Sequence record: NC_028780.1
Source: Escherichia phage slur07
Direction: 5' to 3' (one strand)
DNA: 64,000 nt
In this document: positions 2,121 to 9,059 of the stretch, one piece after another
How positions within the stretch are numbered: position 1 is the first letter of the stretch
Layout: each line of letters opens with the position of its first letter
Program-made: the position numbers and the translations under genes
Notes under the pieces: generated by a model
What the model was told of the DNA's origin: nothing
Database searches by the model: none
What the model saw: only the letters and a program-made list of their open reading frames with translations

Positions 2121-2146
2121 GAGGACTCCTTCGGGAGTCCTTTTTT
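2121..2146 (+). terminator. intrinsic terminator (GGACTCC-TTCG-GGAGTCC plus T-run)
   Basis: Perfect 7 bp stem, tetraloop, TTTTTT. Confidence 0.7.
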
Positions 2147-3033: not shown

Positions 3034-3321
3034 ATGTTTATGACTACTTATTTTGATACCCGCAAAAATTTCTGTGAAGTTGTTTTCTCAAAGGCACCTA
3101 AAGACCTTCCTGCACATTTGCAACCTACTAGCGAATCGATTAAAAACTACGTTGATGTGGTTTGTCCTTTAGAATTCCGTACAGTAAATGGGCGTGATAC
3201 TTTAGCTATCACTAAACTCAATCGCGAAATTGACATTGACCCTTCAATTGCGCGTGAAATTAACATTTCTGATATTGGCGGCGGTAATGTTAAATCGCAC
3301 GGTTTTCAGATGAGGTTCTAA
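3034..3321 (+). CDS. hypothetical early protein (95 aa)
   Basis: ORF in tightly packed same-strand array. Confidence 0.55.
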   Translation: MFMTTYFDTRKNFCEVVFSKAPKDLPAHLQPTSESIKNYVDVVCPLEFRTVNGRDTLAITKLNREIDIDPSIAREINISDIGGGNVKSHGFQMRF

Positions 3322-3518
3322 TGAAATTCTTTTTAGGTCAAACTGTTGAATTAAAGGGAGTTGGTATACCTGGATTAATTTCTAAGGTTCTACCTCCATT
3401 TAAATGGAGTGGTATTCAAATAAAAGAGGCTTATATTGTTTCCTGGGTAGATGGAAATGAAGACCTTCGTATGGGTGATGAATTATCTCCTATCTACGGA
3501 TTAAAGGAATTAGTATGA
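3321..3518 (+). CDS. hypothetical early protein (65 aa)
   Basis: Start overlaps previous stop (ATGA). Confidence 0.5.
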   Translation: MKFFLGQTVELKGVGIPGLISKVLPPFKWSGIQIKEAYIVSWVDGNEDLRMGDELSPIYGLKELV

Positions 3519-3721
3519 ATATAATTAATAAGATTTTTGGAATTCAGTACATTAAGGTCACATATAAAGTAACAGATAAAAATCCGTATACTGATGAACA
3601 CGAAGAACCACAAGTTAAGTCTATTATATTAGAAAAGGACCCTAACTGGCCAGTTGAATTTCGTCTTCCTTGCTATGGTCATTGGGCTGATGTTGAAATT
3701 ATAAGCATTGAAAATGTCTGA
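3515..3721 (+). CDS. hypothetical early protein (68 aa)
   Basis: Start overlaps previous stop. Confidence 0.5.
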   Translation: MNIINKIFGIQYIKVTYKVTDKNPYTDEHEEPQVKSIILEKDPNWPVEFRLPCYGHWADVEIISIENV

Positions 3722-4172
3722 GTTAGAGATTAGAAGTAATTTTAGATGGCCATCATGCGCATTAAGTAATTTTGCCCAATGGCCTTTCGTCATGGATGGT
3801 ATTCAATTCGGAGGTCTCGAAGGATTCCTCCAAGGATGTAAGGTGAAAAACGTTGAACAACAACGTCGTATATTTGGATTATCCGGGCTTGCCGCCCAAC
3901 AAGCTGGAAGGTCTTATGCTAGAGCTCAGGACCATGGGACCCTCTTCTGGCTTGGAGTTCCATTTTCAAGATACTCCCCGGCGTGGAAAGAATTATACAC
4001 AAATGCATATTTTGAAGCAGCGATCCAAAACAAGGGCTTTCGTGATGCATTACAAGCCTCGAAAGGAAAAGTTTTGAAGCACAGCATGGCTAGTGGTCTA
4101 ACAAAAGATGATACAATACTAACCGAAGCTGAATTTATTGATGTGTTAAACCTATTAAGAGACTCTCTATGA
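3708..4172 (+). CDS. NADAR/YbiA-like (DUF1768-like) protein, possibly divergent
   Basis: N-terminal LSNFAQWPF...DG...GLEGFLQGCK resembles the YbiA/NADAR signature (SNFA-WP...DG...E-YFQAQK); C-terminal half diverges. Confidence 0.55.
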   Translation: MKMSELEIRSNFRWPSCALSNFAQWPFVMDGIQFGGLEGFLQGCKVKNVEQQRRIFGLSGLAAQQAGRSYARAQDHGTLFWLGVPFSRYSPAWKELYTNAYFEAAIQNKGFRDALQASKGKVLKHSMASGLTKDDTILTEAEFIDVLNLLRDSL

Positions 4173-5005
4173 AGCCTACTATTTTAACTGATATTGATGG
4201 AGTATGTTTAAGCTGGCAATCAGGCCTTCCTTATTTTGCTCAGAAATATAATCTTCCGTTAGAACATATTTTAAAAATGATCCAAGATGAGAAATTTATT
4301 TCTCCTGGTAAACTCTTTAACTGTGATGAAGAACTTGGCGTTAAGCTAATTGAAAAATACAATCGATCAGATTTTATTCGTTACTTGTCTCCATATAAAG
4401 ATGCTCTGTGTGTAATTAACAAATTAAAAGAAGATTATAATTTTGTAGCTGTTACAGCATTGGGTGATTCTATTGACGCTCTGTTGAATCGTCAATTTAA
4501 TTTGAATGCTCTTTTTCCTGGTGCCTTCTCAGAAGTAATGATGTGTGGTCATGATTCTTCAAAAGAAGAGTTGTTCAAAAAGGCAAAAGAGAAATATAAC
4601 GTAATTTGTTATATTGACGATCTCGCTCACCACTGCGATCATGCGAGTGAAATATTACGTGTTCCTGTGTATTGGATGGCTCGAGGAGAGCGTGACAGTA
4701 TTCCAAAAACTGCACAGCGAGTTTATACATGGAATGATGTAGAGAATAAGCTTTTTCCATTGAAGGAAAATAAAGAAAGTTTTGATCGTGAAAAAGCTAT
4801 AAAAGATACAATCGAGAAGATGATTAAAAATGATTCTTTTCGTTGGAACACTACCTGGAGAACTCCTGGATTTAATCCTTATAATCCATATCATCCATAT
4901 CAGACGCATCCGTTTCAGACATGGAACTATATTAAACCCGGTGGTATAGAGTATTTGTATAATAGACCTACTTGTGGTGATAATATTTTCCAAGGAGCAT
5001 TCTAA
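4169..5005 (+). CDS. HAD-superfamily phosphatase/nucleotidase-like protein (278 aa)
   Basis: N-terminal LTDIDGV (DxDG) HAD motif I; start overlaps the NADAR-like ORF; C-terminal NPY/HPY aromatic-proline repeats. Confidence 0.6.
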   Translation: MKPTILTDIDGVCLSWQSGLPYFAQKYNLPLEHILKMIQDEKFISPGKLFNCDEELGVKLIEKYNRSDFIRYLSPYKDALCVINKLKEDYNFVAVTALGDSIDALLNRQFNLNALFPGAFSEVMMCGHDSSKEELFKKAKEKYNVICYIDDLAHHCDHASEILRVPVYWMARGERDSIPKTAQRVYTWNDVENKLFPLKENKESFDREKAIKDTIEKMIKNDSFRWNTTWRTPGFNPYNPYHPYQTHPFQTWNYIKPGGIEYLYNRPTCGDNIFQGAF

Positions 5006-5274
5006 TGTTTGTTGTTCACACTATTTATGAAAATGAAGGTAATACTACACGTGATTATGGTCACGTAAATCAATTTTTTAGATGCAATCCAGAATTCCGA
5101 GCTCAAAAAGACGAACGAATTTTTAAAAAATGTGTAGAGCAAGGTTTCATTTACGTCAAGCACTGGATGCAAGGAAATAAAGTTAGAACCACATATCATA
5201 GGTCTTTGACTGAGCTTAATGATGAATTGATTTATAATAGAGCTGTAAACCAAACTCTAAAGGATGAACAATGA
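5005..5274 (+). CDS. hypothetical protein (89 aa)
   Basis: ORF between HAD-like gene and ligase; overlapping stops and starts. Confidence 0.5.
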   Translation: MFVVHTIYENEGNTTRDYGHVNQFFRCNPEFRAQKDERIFKKCVEQGFIYVKHWMQGNKVRTTYHRSLTELNDELIYNRAVNQTLKDEQ

Positions 5275-6734
5275 TTCTTAAAATTCTGAACGAAATAGCA
5301 TCTATTGGTTCAACTAAGCAGAAGCAAGCAATTCTTGAAAAGAATAAAGATAATGAATTGCTTAAACGAGTATATCGTCTGACTTATTCTCGTGGGTTGC
5401 AGTATTATATCAAGAAATGGCCTAAACCTGGTATTGCTACCCAGAGTTTTGGAATGTTGACTCTTACCGATATGCTTGACTTCATTGAATTTACATTAGC
5501 TACTCGGAAATTGACTGGAAATGCGGCAATTGAGGAATTAGTAGGTTATATTACTGACGGTAAAAAAGATGATGTTGAAGTTTTGCGTCGAGTGATGATG
5601 CGAGACCTTGAATGTGGTGCTTCAGTATCTATTGCAAACAAAGTTTGGCCAGGTTTAATTCCTGAACAACCTCAAATGCTCGCAAGTTCTTATGATGAAA
5701 AAGGCATTAGTAAGAATATCAAATTTCCAGCCTTTGCACAATTAAAAGCAGATGGAGCTCGGTGTTTTGCTGAAGTTAGAGGTGATGAATTAGATGATGT
5801 CCGTCTTTTATCACGAGCTGGTAATGAATATCTAGGATTAGATCTTCTTAAGGAAGAGTTAATCAAAATGACCGCTGAAGCCCGCCAGATTCATCCAGAA
5901 GGTGTGTTAATTGATGGCGAATTGGTATACCATGAGCAAGTTAAAAAGGAGCCAGAAGGCCTAGATTTTCTTTTTGATGCTTATCCTGAAATTAGTAAAG
6001 CTAAAGAGTTTGCTGAAGTAGCTGAATCACGTACTACTTCTAATGGAATCGCTAATAAATCTTTAAAGGGAACTATTTCAGAAAAAGAAGCACAATGCAT
6101 GAAGTTTCAGGTCTGGGATTATGTTCCGTTGGTAGAAATATACGGTCTTCCTGCATTTCGTTTGAAATATGATGTACGTTTTTCTAAACTAGAACAAATG
6201 ACATCAGGCTATGATAAAGTAATTTTAATTGAAAACCAGGTAGTAAATAACCTAAATGAAGCTAAGGTAATTTATAAAAAATATATTGACCAAGGTCTTG
6301 AAGGTATTATTCTCAAAAATATCGATGGATTATGGGAAAATGCTCGTTCAAAAAATCTCTATAAATTTAAAGAAGTAATTGATGTTGATTTAAAAATTGT
6401 AGGAATTTATCCTCACCGTAAAGACCCTACTAAAGCGGGTGGATTTATTCTTGAGTCAGAGTGTGGAAAAATTAAAGTAAATGCTGGTTCAGGCTTAAAA
6501 GATAAAGCCGGCGTAAAATCGCATGAACTTGACCGTACTCGCATTATGGAAAACCAAAATTATTATATTGGAAAAATTCTAGAGTGCGAATGCAACGGTT
6601 GGTTAAAATCTGATGGCCGCACTGATTACGTTAAATTATTTCTTCCGATTGCGATTCGTTTGCGTGAAGATAAAACTAAAGCTAATACATTCGAGGATGT
6701 ATTTGGTGATTTTCATGAGGTAACTGGTTTATGA
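5271..6734 (+). CDS. 30: ATP-dependent DNA ligase
   Basis: 487 aa; KADGARC adenylation motif (KxDGxR); sequence matches recalled T4 gp30 (MILKILNEIASIGSTKQKQ...). Confidence 0.95.
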   Translation: MILKILNEIASIGSTKQKQAILEKNKDNELLKRVYRLTYSRGLQYYIKKWPKPGIATQSFGMLTLTDMLDFIEFTLATRKLTGNAAIEELVGYITDGKKDDVEVLRRVMMRDLECGASVSIANKVWPGLIPEQPQMLASSYDEKGISKNIKFPAFAQLKADGARCFAEVRGDELDDVRLLSRAGNEYLGLDLLKEELIKMTAEARQIHPEGVLIDGELVYHEQVKKEPEGLDFLFDAYPEISKAKEFAEVAESRTTSNGIANKSLKGTISEKEAQCMKFQVWDYVPLVEIYGLPAFRLKYDVRFSKLEQMTSGYDKVILIENQVVNNLNEAKVIYKKYIDQGLEGIILKNIDGLWENARSKNLYKFKEVIDVDLKIVGIYPHRKDPTKAGGFILESECGKIKVNAGSGLKDKAGVKSHELDRTRIMENQNYYIGKILECECNGWLKSDGRTDYVKLFLPIAIRLREDKTKANTFEDVFGDFHEVTGL

Positions 6735-6919
6735 AAGCTTACTTAGAAACAATTGTCGTGGCTCAAAAAGAAGGTGGAGATGTTTCTACTTCTGTATCAC
6801 AAATCATGATTGAATTTATAGATGCATATGCTTATAATAAATTCACAGAAACTTTTGATGCTTATGAAAAAGGTCCAAAGTTTGAAATATATCGTACTCT
6901 CTTACCAATAGATTATTAA
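6731..6919 (+). CDS. hypothetical protein (62 aa)
   Basis: ORF overlapping ligase stop. Confidence 0.45.
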   Translation: MKAYLETIVVAQKEGGDVSTSVSQIMIEFIDAYAYNKFTETFDAYEKGPKFEIYRTLLPIDY

Positions 6920-6968: not shown

Positions 6969-9059
6969 ATGATGGAACTCATTACAGAATTATTTGACGA
7001 AGATACTACTCTTCCGATTACAAACTTAAATCCAAAGAAGAAAATACCACAAATTTTTTCAGTTCATGTTGATGATGCAATTGAACAACCAGGCTTTCGT
7101 TTATGTACCTATACATCTGGAGGTGATACTAATCGCGATTTAAAAATGGGCGATAAAATGATGCATATCGTTCCTTTTACATTAACTGCAAAGGGGTCAA
7201 TTGCTAAATTAAAGGGTCTTGGACCGAGTCCTATTAATTACATCAATTCAGTATTTACCGTAGCAATGCAAACAATGAAACAGTATAAAATTGATGCATG
7301 TATGCTACGCATTCTTAAGTCTAAAACCGCCGGTCAAGCTCGACAAATTCAACTTATTGCTGATAGACTTATCCGTAGTCGTTCAGGTGGCAGATACGTC
7401 CTTCTTAAGGAACTCTGGGATTACGATAAAAAGTATGCATATATTCTTATACATCGTAAAAACGTATCACTAGAAGACATTCCAGGAGTTCCAGAAATTA
7501 GTACTGAACTCTTTACTAAGGTTGAATCGAAGGTCGGTGATGTTTATATCAATAAAGATACTGGAGCCCAAGTAACTAAAAATGAGGCAATTGCAGCATC
7601 AATTGCACAAGAAAATGATAAACGTTCTGACCAAGCCGTAATCGTTAAAGTTAAAATTTCCCGTAGAGCAATTGCGCAAAGTCAATCATTGGAATCTTCT
7701 AGATTTGAAAGTGAATTATTCCAGAAGTATGAATCTACCGCAGCTAATTTCAATAAACCTGCTACCGCTCCTTTAATTCCCGAAGCAGAAGAAATGAAGC
7801 TTGGAATTAATTCATTAGCTTCTAAAACTAAGGCAGCAAAAATTATTGCTGAAGGAACTGCAGATGAACTTCATTATGACTATAAATTCTTTTCAAAAAG
7901 TGAGGTTAATGAAGTTTCTGAAAAAATTAAAGATGTAATTCTTAATGCGATTAAAAATGAACCAACTACTTCAATAAAATGTTTAGAGAAATACGCAGCA
8001 GCTGTTAATCAACTCTTTGAAGAATATAAAGATAATTGGCTTGATAAACATAATAAAACTCGTAAAGGGCAGCCAGATGAAGTCTGGGAAGAAATAACTA
8101 AAAATGCCTGGAATGCAGCAAAAACTAAATTCCTCAAAAGAATGATTTATAGTTTTTCTGGAATTGGTGCAGGTCCAATGATTGATATTACTATTGCCCG
8201 TGATGGTTCTAAATATACTCCATCACAAAAGCGCGGCATTAGAGAGTATTGTGGTTCAGGATATACTGACATCAATAATCTTCTTTTAGGTCGTTACAAT
8301 CCAGAACGATATGATGTAATGAGTGAAAAAGAAATTGAATCTGCTATAAATAATTTAGATTCAGCTTTTGAAAATGGTGACCGCATACCGGAAGGCATTA
8401 CAGTTTATCGTGCTCAAAGTATGACTGCTCCTATATACGAAGCGCTAGTTAAAAATAAAGTGTTCTATTTCAGAAATTTTGTATCTACTTCTTTAACTCC
8501 TATCATTTTTGGGCGTTTTGGAATTACACATGCTGGTATTGGTCTTTTAGAACCAGAAGCTCGTAATGAATTGACAGTTGATAAAAATGAAGAAGGAATA
8601 ACTATTAATCCAAACGAAATAAGAGCGTATAAAGAAAATCCTGAATACGTTAAAGTTCAAATAGGATGGGCAATTGATGGAGCTCATAAAGTTAATGTTG
8701 TATATCCAGGAAGTCTAGGAATAGCAACAGAAGCTGAAGTTATTCTACCGCGTGGATTGATGGTCAAAGTTAATAAAATAACTGATGCTTCTAATAATGA
8801 CGGAACCACGTCTAATAATACAAAACTCATTCAAGCTGAAGTTATGACCACCGAAGAACTCACCGAATCGGTAATCTATGACGGAGACCGTTTAATGGAA
8901 ACCGGCGAAGTAGTTGCAATGACAGGTGATATAGAAGATAGAGTTGACTTTGCATCATTTGTTTCATCAAATGTTAAACAGAAAGTAGAATCATCTCTTG
9001 GAATTATTGCGTCTTGCATAGATATTACAAACATGCCTTACAAGTTCGTTCAAGGATAA
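6969..9059 (+). CDS. alt: Alt ADP-ribosyltransferase (virion-packaged, modifies host RNA polymerase)
   Basis: 696 aa; N-terminus MELITELFD... matches recalled T4 Alt; ART motifs YRAQS (R), FVSTSL (STS), TEAEVILPRG (ExE); start may be second ATG at 6972. Confidence 0.9.
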   Translation: MMELITELFDEDTTLPITNLNPKKKIPQIFSVHVDDAIEQPGFRLCTYTSGGDTNRDLKMGDKMMHIVPFTLTAKGSIAKLKGLGPSPINYINSVFTVAMQTMKQYKIDACMLRILKSKTAGQARQIQLIADRLIRSRSGGRYVLLKELWDYDKKYAYILIHRKNVSLEDIPGVPEISTELFTKVESKVGDVYINKDTGAQVTKNEAIAASIAQENDKRSDQAVIVKVKISRRAIAQSQSLESSRFESELFQKYESTAANFNKPATAPLIPEAEEMKLGINSLASKTKAAKIIAEGTADELHYDYKFFSKSEVNEVSEKIKDVILNAIKNEPTTSIKCLEKYAAAVNQLFEEYKDNWLDKHNKTRKGQPDEVWEEITKNAWNAAKTKFLKRMIYSFSGIGAGPMIDITIARDGSKYTPSQKRGIREYCGSGYTDINNLLLGRYNPERYDVMSEKEIESAINNLDSAFENGDRIPEGITVYRAQSMTAPIYEALVKNKVFYFRNFVSTSLTPIIFGRFGITHAGIGLLEPEARNELTVDKNEEGITINPNEIRAYKENPEYVKVQIGWAIDGAHKVNVVYPGSLGIATEAEVILPRGLMVKVNKITDASNNDGTTSNNTKLIQAEVMTTEELTESVIYDGDRLMETGEVVAMTGDIEDRVDFASFVSSNVKQKVESSLGIIASCIDITNMPYKFVQG

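What the first reader, a model, noticed from the sequence alone, without database searches (positions are those of the whole stretch)
3708..5005. Overlapping NADAR-like and HAD-like early genes next to DNA ligase
The ORF at 3708-4172 carries an N-terminal SNFAQWPF...DG...EGFLQGCK block resembling the YbiA/NADAR signature (a family reported to hydrolyse ADP-ribose adducts, including on DNA). Its C-terminal half diverges, so it may be catalytically altered. Its stop overlaps the start of a DxDG HAD-type phosphatase whose C-terminus is an unusual aromatic-proline repeat (NPYNPYHPYQTHPFQ). A translationally coupled pair of this kind beside the ligase could reverse or process nucleotide or DNA ADP-ribosylation.
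Basis: partly seen in the sequence, partly recalled or inferred. Interest (0 to 1): 0.55.

Follow-up and report, generated by a model that had tools for sequence, protein, structure and literature searches.

The report
T4 adfN NADAR plus neighbouring HAD phosphatase
The first gene is phage T4's already published AdfN enzyme, which strips ADP-ribose off phage DNA to defeat the bacterial DarTG1 defence. The overlapping second gene is an uncharacterised phosphatase that published transposon data show is not needed for that job.

Summary
The window is a Tequatrovirus: 100% identical to Escherichia phage vB_Eco_TB37 and 97.4% to T4.

**ORF 1 is T4 gene 30.3 (adfN).**
- The true start is ATG 3714, not TTG 3708, giving 152 aa, 150/152 identical to T4.
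- It matches Pfam PF08010 at E 5e-70.
- Catalytic E36 and K43, the phage-clade H123 and the C-terminal helix are all present.
- T4 AdfN is a published guanine-ADP-ribosyl-DNA glycohydrolase that counters DarTG1. The NADAR guess is right but already known, and the "catalytically altered" idea is wrong.

**ORF 2 is T4 gene 30.2.**
- It is a C1-capped HAD phosphatase with all four motifs invariant.
- Its nearest family is NT5C deoxyribonucleotidases, below Pfam's thresholds.
- Its aromatic/proline tail is predicted to be disordered and is variable.

**The functional-pair idea is not supported.**
- The ATGA overlap is one of seven consecutive stop/start overlaps.
- Most distant NADAR loci have no HAD nearby, whereas the HAD sits just upstream of DNA ligase in 69/75 loci.
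- T4 transposon sequencing on DarTG1 depletes 30.3 (log2FC −7.25) but not 30.2 (−0.12).

Verdict: ordinary and already explained. gp30.2's substrate remains unknown.

The parts
3714..4172 (+). Gene 30.3 = adfN: a NADAR-fold DNA (guanine) ADP-ribosylglycohydrolase, 152 aa. The start is ATG 3714, not TTG 3708.
3819..3842 (+). Codons for catalytic E36 (3819-3821, GAA) through K43 (3840-3842, AAG), within the EGFLQGCK block.
   Evidence: Read directly from the sequence. E36 is invariant and K43 at least 90% conserved in 54 relatives. E36A and K43A impair T4 AdfN.
4080..4082 (+). Codon for H123 (CAC). This is the last-strand histidine that replaces the Glu of YbiA or the Asp of DarT1-linked NADARs in the gp30.3 clade.
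   Evidence: Invariant in alignment A2. It follows strand 120-122 in the model. The clade-defining residue is described in PMC11125620.
4125..4169 (+). C-terminal helix of AdfN (residues 138-152). It is intact here; the RB69 allele lacks it.
   Evidence: Helix 138-151 in the model. RB69's frameshift removes the last 15 residues and reduces activity.
4169..4172 (+). ATGA stop/start overlap between 30.3 and 30.2.
   Evidence: It is one of seven consecutive overlapped junctions from 30.6 to alt.1.
4169..4753 (+). Gene 30.2, catalytic part (residues 1-195): a HAD-superfamily phosphatase core with a C1 helical cap, nearest to NT5C-type nucleotidases.
4754..5005 (+). Gene 30.2 C-terminal extension (residues 196-278, plus the stop codon): one helix (197-221), then a tail predicted to be disordered and rich in aromatics and proline. 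The NPY-NPY-HPY-QT-HPF repeat lies at 4874-4915.
   Evidence: pLDDT is about 41-58 from residue 222. The repeat was found. The tail is absent or different in many homologues of 196-230 aa.
3515..3721 (+). Gene 30.4 (68 aa). Its stop overlaps the adfN start by 8 nt, so it probably drives adfN translation by coupling.
   Evidence: There is no Shine-Dalgarno sequence before the adfN ATG. 30.4 insertions are depleted on DarTG1 (log2FC -1.79, adjusted p 0.014).
5005..5274 (+). Gene 30.1 (DUF3045), lying between 30.2 and the ligase.
   Evidence: PF11243 at E 2.9e-64.
5271..6734 (+). Gene 30, the ATP-dependent DNA ligase. It is the conserved downstream neighbour of the 30.2-type HAD.
   Evidence: PF01068 at E 3.8e-32. 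A ligase lies within 2 kb downstream of the HAD in 69/75 viral loci.

Best explanation
The two ORFs are T4 genes 30.3 (adfN) and 30.2, in a T4-like phage.

**AdfN.** AdfN is a small NADAR-fold glycohydrolase made early in infection. When the host toxin DarT1 ADP-ribosylates guanines in phage DNA and blocks replication, AdfN cuts the ADP-ribose off the base, using E36, K43 and the clade-specific H123. Replication can then proceed. This is shown experimentally for the 99%-identical T4 protein and inferred here by identity.

**gp30.2.** gp30.2 is a separate enzyme: a Mg-dependent HAD phosphatase with a C1 cap. By the general HAD rule (my own recall of the literature), a cap implies a small-molecule substrate. 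The substrate is most likely a nucleoside or deoxynucleoside monophosphate (inferred). The protein also carries a fast-evolving tail that is predicted to be disordered.

**Relationship.** The two genes are neighbours because of the compact T-even gene string running cd-31-rIII-30.x-30-alt, not because they act together. gp30.2's stable partner in evolution is the DNA ligase gene, and it is dispensable for DarTG1 resistance.
For: **Identity**
- the window matches T4-like phages and both proteins match T4's.

**NADAR fold and residues**
-.

**Published function of T4 AdfN**
- PMC11825919: deleting adfN sensitises T4 to DarTG1; purified protein removes ADP-ribose from DarT1-modified DNA; E36A and K43A impair it.
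- PMC11125620: it hydrolyses guanosine-ADP-ribose but not thymidine-ADP-ribose.
- HIDEN-SEQ preprint: 30.3 log2FC -7.25 on DarTG1.

**HAD fold, motifs and cap**
-.

**Independence of the two genes**
- 30.2 shows log2FC -0.12 on DarTG1, -0.10 in M9 and 0.02 with RnlAB, and all 72 of its TA sites were hit in the reference library.
- Seven junctions in a row overlap.
- Only 6 of 65 distant NADAR loci have a HAD within 4 kb.
- In Raoultella phage Ra_O-2 the two genes lie 59 kb apart, while 30.2-30.1-ligase stay together.
- The HAD is followed by a ligase in 69/75 loci.
Against: - No experiment was done on this phage's own proteins. AdfN differs from T4's at R74H and I125M; both are non-conserved or consensus positions.
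- A NADAR lies within 4 kb of the HAD in 36/78 HAD loci, so a loose linkage exists.
- Redundancy could hide a 30.2 phenotype in transposon sequencing.
- T4 AdfN works fully only during T-even infection, for unknown reasons.
Confidence: 0.85

Rival explanations
1. One reading: AdfN and gp30.2 form a translationally coupled two-enzyme module. The HAD phosphatase either processes the released ADP-ribose (or a phosphorylated intermediate) or is the cofactor AdfN needs.
For: - The genes overlap by ATGA.
- They are directly adjacent in all 13 T-even-type loci with enough flank, and in Acinetobacter phages.
- A NADAR lies within 4 kb of 36/78 HAD loci.
- T4 AdfN needs an unidentified T-even factor for full activity.
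Against: - 30.2 insertions (71 TA sites) are not depleted on DarTG1 (log2FC -0.12, adjusted p 1.0), while 30.3 is lost.
- AdfN alone is active in vitro.
- The overlap is generic for this gene string.
- 59 of 65 distant NADAR loci have no HAD within 4 kb.
- The HAD tracks the ligase, not the NADAR.
Confidence: 0.05
2. AdfN here is a catalytically altered or inactive NADAR (a binder or decoy) because its C-terminal half has diverged.
For: - Sequence similarity to YbiA covers only residues 14-66.
- Pfam NADAR does not hit.
- The YbiA-type last-strand Glu is missing.
Against: - The whole chain has the NADAR fold.
- E36, K43 and H123 are conserved.
- The T4 protein (99% identical) hydrolyses guanine-ADP-ribose on DNA, and catalytic mutants lose function.
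- No binding to DarT1 was seen in a two-hybrid assay.
Confidence: 0.02
3. gp30.2 acts on nucleic-acid ends, as a DNA or RNA 3'-phosphatase working with the adjacent ligase in the manner of the T4 Pnk phosphatase domain, rather than on free nucleotides.
For: - A ligase lies within 2 kb downstream in 69/75 loci.
- There is a weak PHROG hit to polynucleotide kinase (E 0.0034).
- Several BFVD structural hits are PNK phosphatase domains.
Against: - The model has a roughly 70-residue C1 helical cap between motifs I and II. In HAD enzymes a cap generally goes with small substrates, and PNK-type phosphatases have none (my own recall of the HAD literature).
- The best specific matches are NT5C-type nucleotidases.
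- Conserved synteny in T4-like core regions need not mean shared function.
Confidence: 0.1

Closest known systems
T4 AdfN (gp30.3; Pfam PF08010 Phage_30_3), the anti-DarT factor NADAR
   Same: 150/152 identical. Same length, same catalytic residues (E36, K43, H123), same C-terminal helix, and the same genomic position between 30.4 and 30.2.
   Different: Two substitutions, R74H and I125M, at non-conserved or consensus positions. The T4 ATG of the internal 30.3' ORF is ACG here.
DarG1 / DarT1-linked NADAR antitoxins (e.g. Geobacter lovleyi 8bat) and E. coli YbiA (2b3w)
   Different: It is an orphan with no DarT partner. It has His instead of Asp or Glu in the last strand. It does not rescue DarT1 toxicity in uninfected cells and works fully only in T-even infection. 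Sequence identity is 15-20%.
NT5C family 5'(3')-deoxyribonucleotidases (Pfam PF06941; human cdN 6g2n, mouse 2jao, S. epidermidis 3bwv)
   Different: The matches fall below Pfam's threshold, and this protein itself has no Pfam hit. It carries an 83-residue C-terminal extension with an aromatic/proline tail that is predicted to be disordered. No activity data exist.
T4 Pnk phosphatase domain and other phage HAD phosphatases
   Same: DxDxT/V HAD chemistry, a phage early gene, and a neighbourhood of nucleic-acid enzymes.
   Different: gp30.2 has a cap domain and no kinase domain, and the similarity is weak (PHROG E 0.0034).

Membership tests
NADAR superfamily (YbiA fold) | [quoted passage not shown] | tested here: met
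NADAR superfamily (YbiA fold) | Conserved N-terminal catalytic Glu and Lys (E36 and K43 in T4 numbering). | tested here: met
   Both are present in the window. E36 is invariant and K43 at least 90% conserved in 54 relatives. A family profile aligns this block to YbiA (E 0.0074).
NADAR superfamily (YbiA fold) | A match to Pfam NADAR (PF08719) above its threshold. | tested here: not met
   No PF08719 hit at E <= 1. The protein belongs to the separate model PF08010. One relative (P0180) carries both precomputed hits.
gp30.3 / AdfN clade of phage NADARs | A full-length match to PF08010, and His in the last strand in place of Glu or Asp. | tested here: met
   PF08010 at E 5.2e-70, covering profile positions 1-138 of 138. 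H123 is invariant. The criterion comes from PMC11125620.
gp30.3 / AdfN clade of phage NADARs | An intact C-terminal helix, needed for full anti-DarTG1 activity (truncated in RB69). | tested here: met
   The protein is 152 aa with helix 138-151. The requirement is described.
gp30.3 / AdfN clade of phage NADARs | Guanine-ADP-ribosyl-DNA glycohydrolase activity and DarTG1 counter-defence. | not testable with these tools
   Shown for T4 AdfN, which is 99% identical. Inferred for this allele.
HAD superfamily phosphatases | Four catalytic motifs: DxD(G/x)(T/V), S/T, K and DD. | tested here: met
   D8, D10, G11 and K132 are invariant. T96, D150 and D151 are at least 90% conserved in 43 relatives.
HAD superfamily phosphatases | A Rossmannoid HAD core fold, plus the cap type. 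| tested here: met
NT5C 5'(3')-deoxyribonucleotidases (PF06941) | A match to the family model above its gathering score. | tested here: not met
   This protein has no Pfam hit. 10/43 relatives give sub-threshold NT5C hits, the best at E 1.2e-4. The profile hits 2jao at E 0.095.
NT5C 5'(3')-deoxyribonucleotidases (PF06941) | dNMP phosphatase activity. | not testable with these tools
   No biochemical data on gp30.2 were found in the paper library.

The most novel reading that the evidence does not exclude
T4-type AdfN works fully only during T-even infection, and the reason is unpublished. The small upstream gene 30.4 (3515-3721) could be the missing T-even-specific helper, rather than merely a translational-coupling leader.
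- It overlaps the adfN start by 8 nt.
- It was found in about as many phage records (719) as carry a T4-type AdfN of at least 80% identity (727). It lies directly upstream of adfN in all the T-even-type loci sampled, and never beside distant NADARs.
- It is the only other gene significantly depleted on DarTG1 in T4 transposon sequencing (log2FC -1.79, adjusted p 0.014).

A second, weaker novel reading is that the 30.2-type HAD is a functional partner of the phage DNA ligase (adjacent in 69/75 loci).
Probability: 0.12. Interest if true: 0.5.

Novelty: already known. Interest (0 to 1): 0.15.

Why it matters
AdfN matters as a clear case of a phage borrowing an antitoxin-like enzyme to undo a host DNA modification. 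That story was published in 2023-2025 for T4 itself, and this window holds a near-identical allele, so nothing new is added there.

What remains open is modest:
- the substrate and role of the widely conserved gp30.2 phosphatase, which so far has no phenotype;
- why T4-type AdfN needs a T-even context.

The value of this check is that it removes an attractive but unsupported "coupled pair" hypothesis.

Tried and rejected
**Searches that led nowhere**
- Single-sequence searches of both proteins against PDB sequences gave only chance hits.
- NCBIfam and PADLOC gave nothing useful.
- The afdb50 fold library was unavailable.
- Literature searches for gp30.2 or gene 30.2 function found nothing. The Cas13b T4 paper mentions gp30.3 only as a guide target.

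**Ideas considered and rejected**
- *gp30.2 is the T-even-specific factor AdfN needs.* Transposon sequencing shows no DarTG1 phenotype for 30.2.
- *The ATGA overlap marks a special pair.* Seven consecutive junctions overlap.
- *The start is at TTG 3708.* The T4 annotation and the published residue numbering fit ATG 3714.
- *A dedicated promoter or terminator brackets the pair.* The scan gave counts no higher than shuffled sequence, and no convincing site lies between 30.4 and 30.1.
- *gp30.2 matters under nutrient limitation.* There is no effect in M9 medium.

Full report
**What the region is**

The window is a T4-like phage (Tequatrovirus). Bases 3400-5400 are 100% identical to Escherichia phage vB_Eco_TB37 and 97.4% identical to T4.

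Aligned to the annotated T4T record, the gene order is cd, 31.2, 31.1, 31, rIII, 30.9 ... 30.4, 30.3 (with the internal 30.3'), 30.2, 30.1, 30 (DNA ligase), alt.1, alt.

The protein from ATG 3714 is 152 aa and 150/152 identical to T4 gp30.3.
- ORF 2 is gene 30.2, 278 aa and 270/278 identical to T4's.
- The TTG at 3708 reported by the mechanical ORF list lies two codons upstream of the annotated ATG. The published catalytic numbering (E36, K43) fits only the ATG start.

**Observation check**

All the described features are present:
- the ALSNFAQWPF...DG...EGFLQGCK block;
- the ATGA stop/start overlap at 4169-4172;
- the DIDGV motif at residues 8-12 of ORF 2;
- four x-Pro-aromatic triplets (NPY, NPY, HPY, HPF) at residues 236-249.

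The family matches are far beyond chance: PF08010 at E 5.2e-70 and PHROG 420 at E 2e-93.

**ORF 1 is AdfN, a published NADAR DNA ADP-ribosylglycohydrolase**

Evidence from my own tests:
- A profile built from 54 relatives hits E. coli YbiA (2b3w) at E 0.0074, but only over the N-terminal block.
- The AlphaFold2 model is confident (pLDDT 93.5, pTM 0.89).
- In the family alignment E36 and H123 are invariant and K43 is at least 90% conserved.

Evidence from the literature:
- Cihlova et al. [quoted passage not shown] They also show that T4 gp30.3 hydrolyses guanosine-ADP-ribose on DNA but not thymidine-ADP-ribose.
- Johannesman et al. 2025 (PMC11825919) mapped DarTG1 resistance of T-even phages to gene 30.3 and renamed it adfN. 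They showed that deleting it sensitises T4, that purified protein removes ADP-ribose from DarT1-modified DNA, and that E36A and K43A impair it. RB69 is sensitive because a frameshift removes the last 15 residues, the C-terminal helix.
- The window allele is full length, with helix 138-151 intact.
- A T4 transposon-sequencing preprint (10.1101/2025.11.20.689424) independently finds 30.3 conditionally essential on DarTG1.

The suggestion of altered catalysis is contradicted.

**ORF 2 is a capped HAD phosphatase of unknown substrate**

- gp30.2 has no Pfam, NCBIfam or PADLOC hit of its own.
- In an alignment of 43 relatives the HAD catalytic positions are fixed. D8, D10, G11 (motif I) and K132 (motif III) are invariant. 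T96 (motif II) and D150-D151 (motif IV) are at least 90% conserved.
- The model is confident for residues 1-195 (pLDDT above 90), followed by helix 197-221. From about residue 222 onward it is low-confidence (pLDDT roughly 41-58) and probably disordered. That stretch includes the aromatic/proline repeat.
- The family profile's only PDB sequence hit is mouse 5'(3')-deoxyribonucleotidase 2jao (E 0.095).
- Among the 43 relatives the commonest specific Pfam hit is NT5C (10 members, best E 1.2e-4, below threshold).
- Viral predicted structures that resemble it and carry names are mostly "5' nucleotidase".
- The helices between motif I and motif II (residues 16-86) form a C1 cap. In HAD enzymes a cap generally goes with small-molecule substrates (my own recall of the HAD literature).

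I therefore infer a nucleotide or deoxynucleotide monophosphatase. Membership in NT5C was tested and not met, so this is a "works like" statement only.

The tail is not conserved. Many homologues are 196-230 aa and lack it, and others carry different Pro/aromatic-rich tails with a loosely shared GIEYL-x-x-PT element.

**Are the two genes a functional pair?**

Four lines of evidence say no.

1. *The overlap is not special.* Every junction from 30.6 to alt.1 overlaps (by 1, 4, 8, 4, 1, 4 and 4 nt). The 30.3/30.2 ATGA is one of seven in a row.
2. *NADAR-centred synteny.* In 80 IMG/VR loci found with the NADAR profile, all T-even-type loci with enough flank (at least 84% identity) have the HAD immediately downstream. 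Only 6 of 65 distant NADAR loci have any gp30.2-type HAD within 4 kb. In Raoultella phage Ra_O-2 the NADAR (42% identical) lies 59 kb from the 30.2-30.1-ligase block. In Acinetobacter phage Lazarus the order NADAR-HAD-ligase is kept.
3. *HAD-centred synteny.* In 79 loci found with the HAD profile, a DNA ligase follows within 2 kb in 69 of the 75 loci with enough flank. A NADAR is directly upstream in 18 of 78, elsewhere in the 4-kb flank in 18, and absent in 42. The HAD's stable neighbour is the ligase.
4. *Published transposon data (the most direct evidence).* The table for T4 on a darTG1 host (Data S6; identified, read) gives:
   - 30.3: log2FC -7.25, adjusted p 0;
   - 30.4: log2FC -1.79, adjusted p 0.014;
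   - 30.2: log2FC -0.12, adjusted p 1.0, over 71 TA sites.

   gp30.2 also shows no effect with RnlAB (0.02) or in M9 versus LB (-0.10). It is non-essential in the reference library, with 72 of 72 sites hit.

**What is left unexplained**

T4 AdfN does not rescue DarT1 toxicity in uninfected cells and only weakly rescues T5 and Bas25. The authors suggest an additional T-even protein may be needed. gp30.2 is a poor candidate, given the transposon data.

Gene 30.4 is worth a look:
- Its stop overlaps the adfN ATG by 8 nt, and adfN has no Shine-Dalgarno sequence.
- It was found in 719 phage records, close to the 727 records that carry a T4-type AdfN of at least 80% identity.
- It sits directly upstream of adfN in all the T-even-type loci, and never next to distant NADARs.
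- It is the only other significant DarTG1 hit.

The simplest explanation is polarity, or loss of translational coupling onto adfN. A helper role is not excluded.

**Verdict**

The NADAR and HAD assignments are right. The main claim is already published for T4, and the "catalytically altered" and "coupled pair" ideas are not supported. Novelty: already known. Interest is low.

Noticed in passing
window 3515-3721 (gene 30.4) and the junction at 3714-3721: Gene 30.4 (68 aa, PHROG 2042) overlaps the adfN start by 8 nt, and adfN lacks a Shine-Dalgarno sequence. In published T4 transposon sequencing, 30.4 is the only other gene significantly depleted on DarTG1 (log2FC -1.79, adjusted p 0.014). It was found in about as many phage records (719) as carry a T4-type AdfN of at least 80% identity (727). 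The likely cause is polarity or translational coupling, but a helper role for AdfN is not excluded.
   Followed up: partly
window 3853-4077 (+ strand, alternative frame inside adfN): The T4-annotated internal gene 30.3' has lost its ATG here (ACG, followed by TTG). The alternative frame nevertheless stays open for 76 codons in this window, in T4, and in 10 of 11 T-even-type IMG/VR loci, down to 85% AdfN identity.
   Followed up: partly
window 4169-6734; loci L085-L163: The gp30.2-type HAD phosphatase is followed by an ATP-dependent DNA ligase within 2 kb in 69 of 75 viral loci. That linkage is much tighter than its linkage to the NADAR. Whether it reflects function or only conserved synteny is unknown.
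   Followed up: partly
window 3034-6919: Seven consecutive stop/start overlaps (1, 4, 8, 4, 1, 4 and 4 nt) chain genes 30.6, 30.5, 30.4, 30.3, 30.2, 30.1, 30 and alt.1 into one tightly packed translational string.
   Followed up: yes
window 6969-9059: The Alt ADP-ribosyltransferase (PF03496, E 1.8e-37) lies two genes downstream of the ligase. The region therefore encodes both an ADP-ribose 'writer' acting on host proteins and an 'eraser' acting on phage DNA. This is known T4 gene content.
   Followed up: no
window 4874-5002 (gp30.2 residues 236-278): The aromatic/proline tail is predicted to be disordered (pLDDT roughly 41-46 over residues 241-278). It is replaced by different Pro/Trp/Tyr-rich tails in other genera, some of which share a GIEYL-x-x-PT element, and it is absent in many homologues. 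It may be a docking motif, but no partner is known.
   Followed up: partly
window 2121-2142 and 2529-2558: A strong terminator-like hairpin (9 pairs plus a T-run) follows gene 30.9. A near-consensus promoter-like site (TTGACA-18-TAAAAT, 11/12) lies upstream of gene 30.7. These probably mark transcription-unit boundaries upstream of the 30.x string.
   Followed up: no
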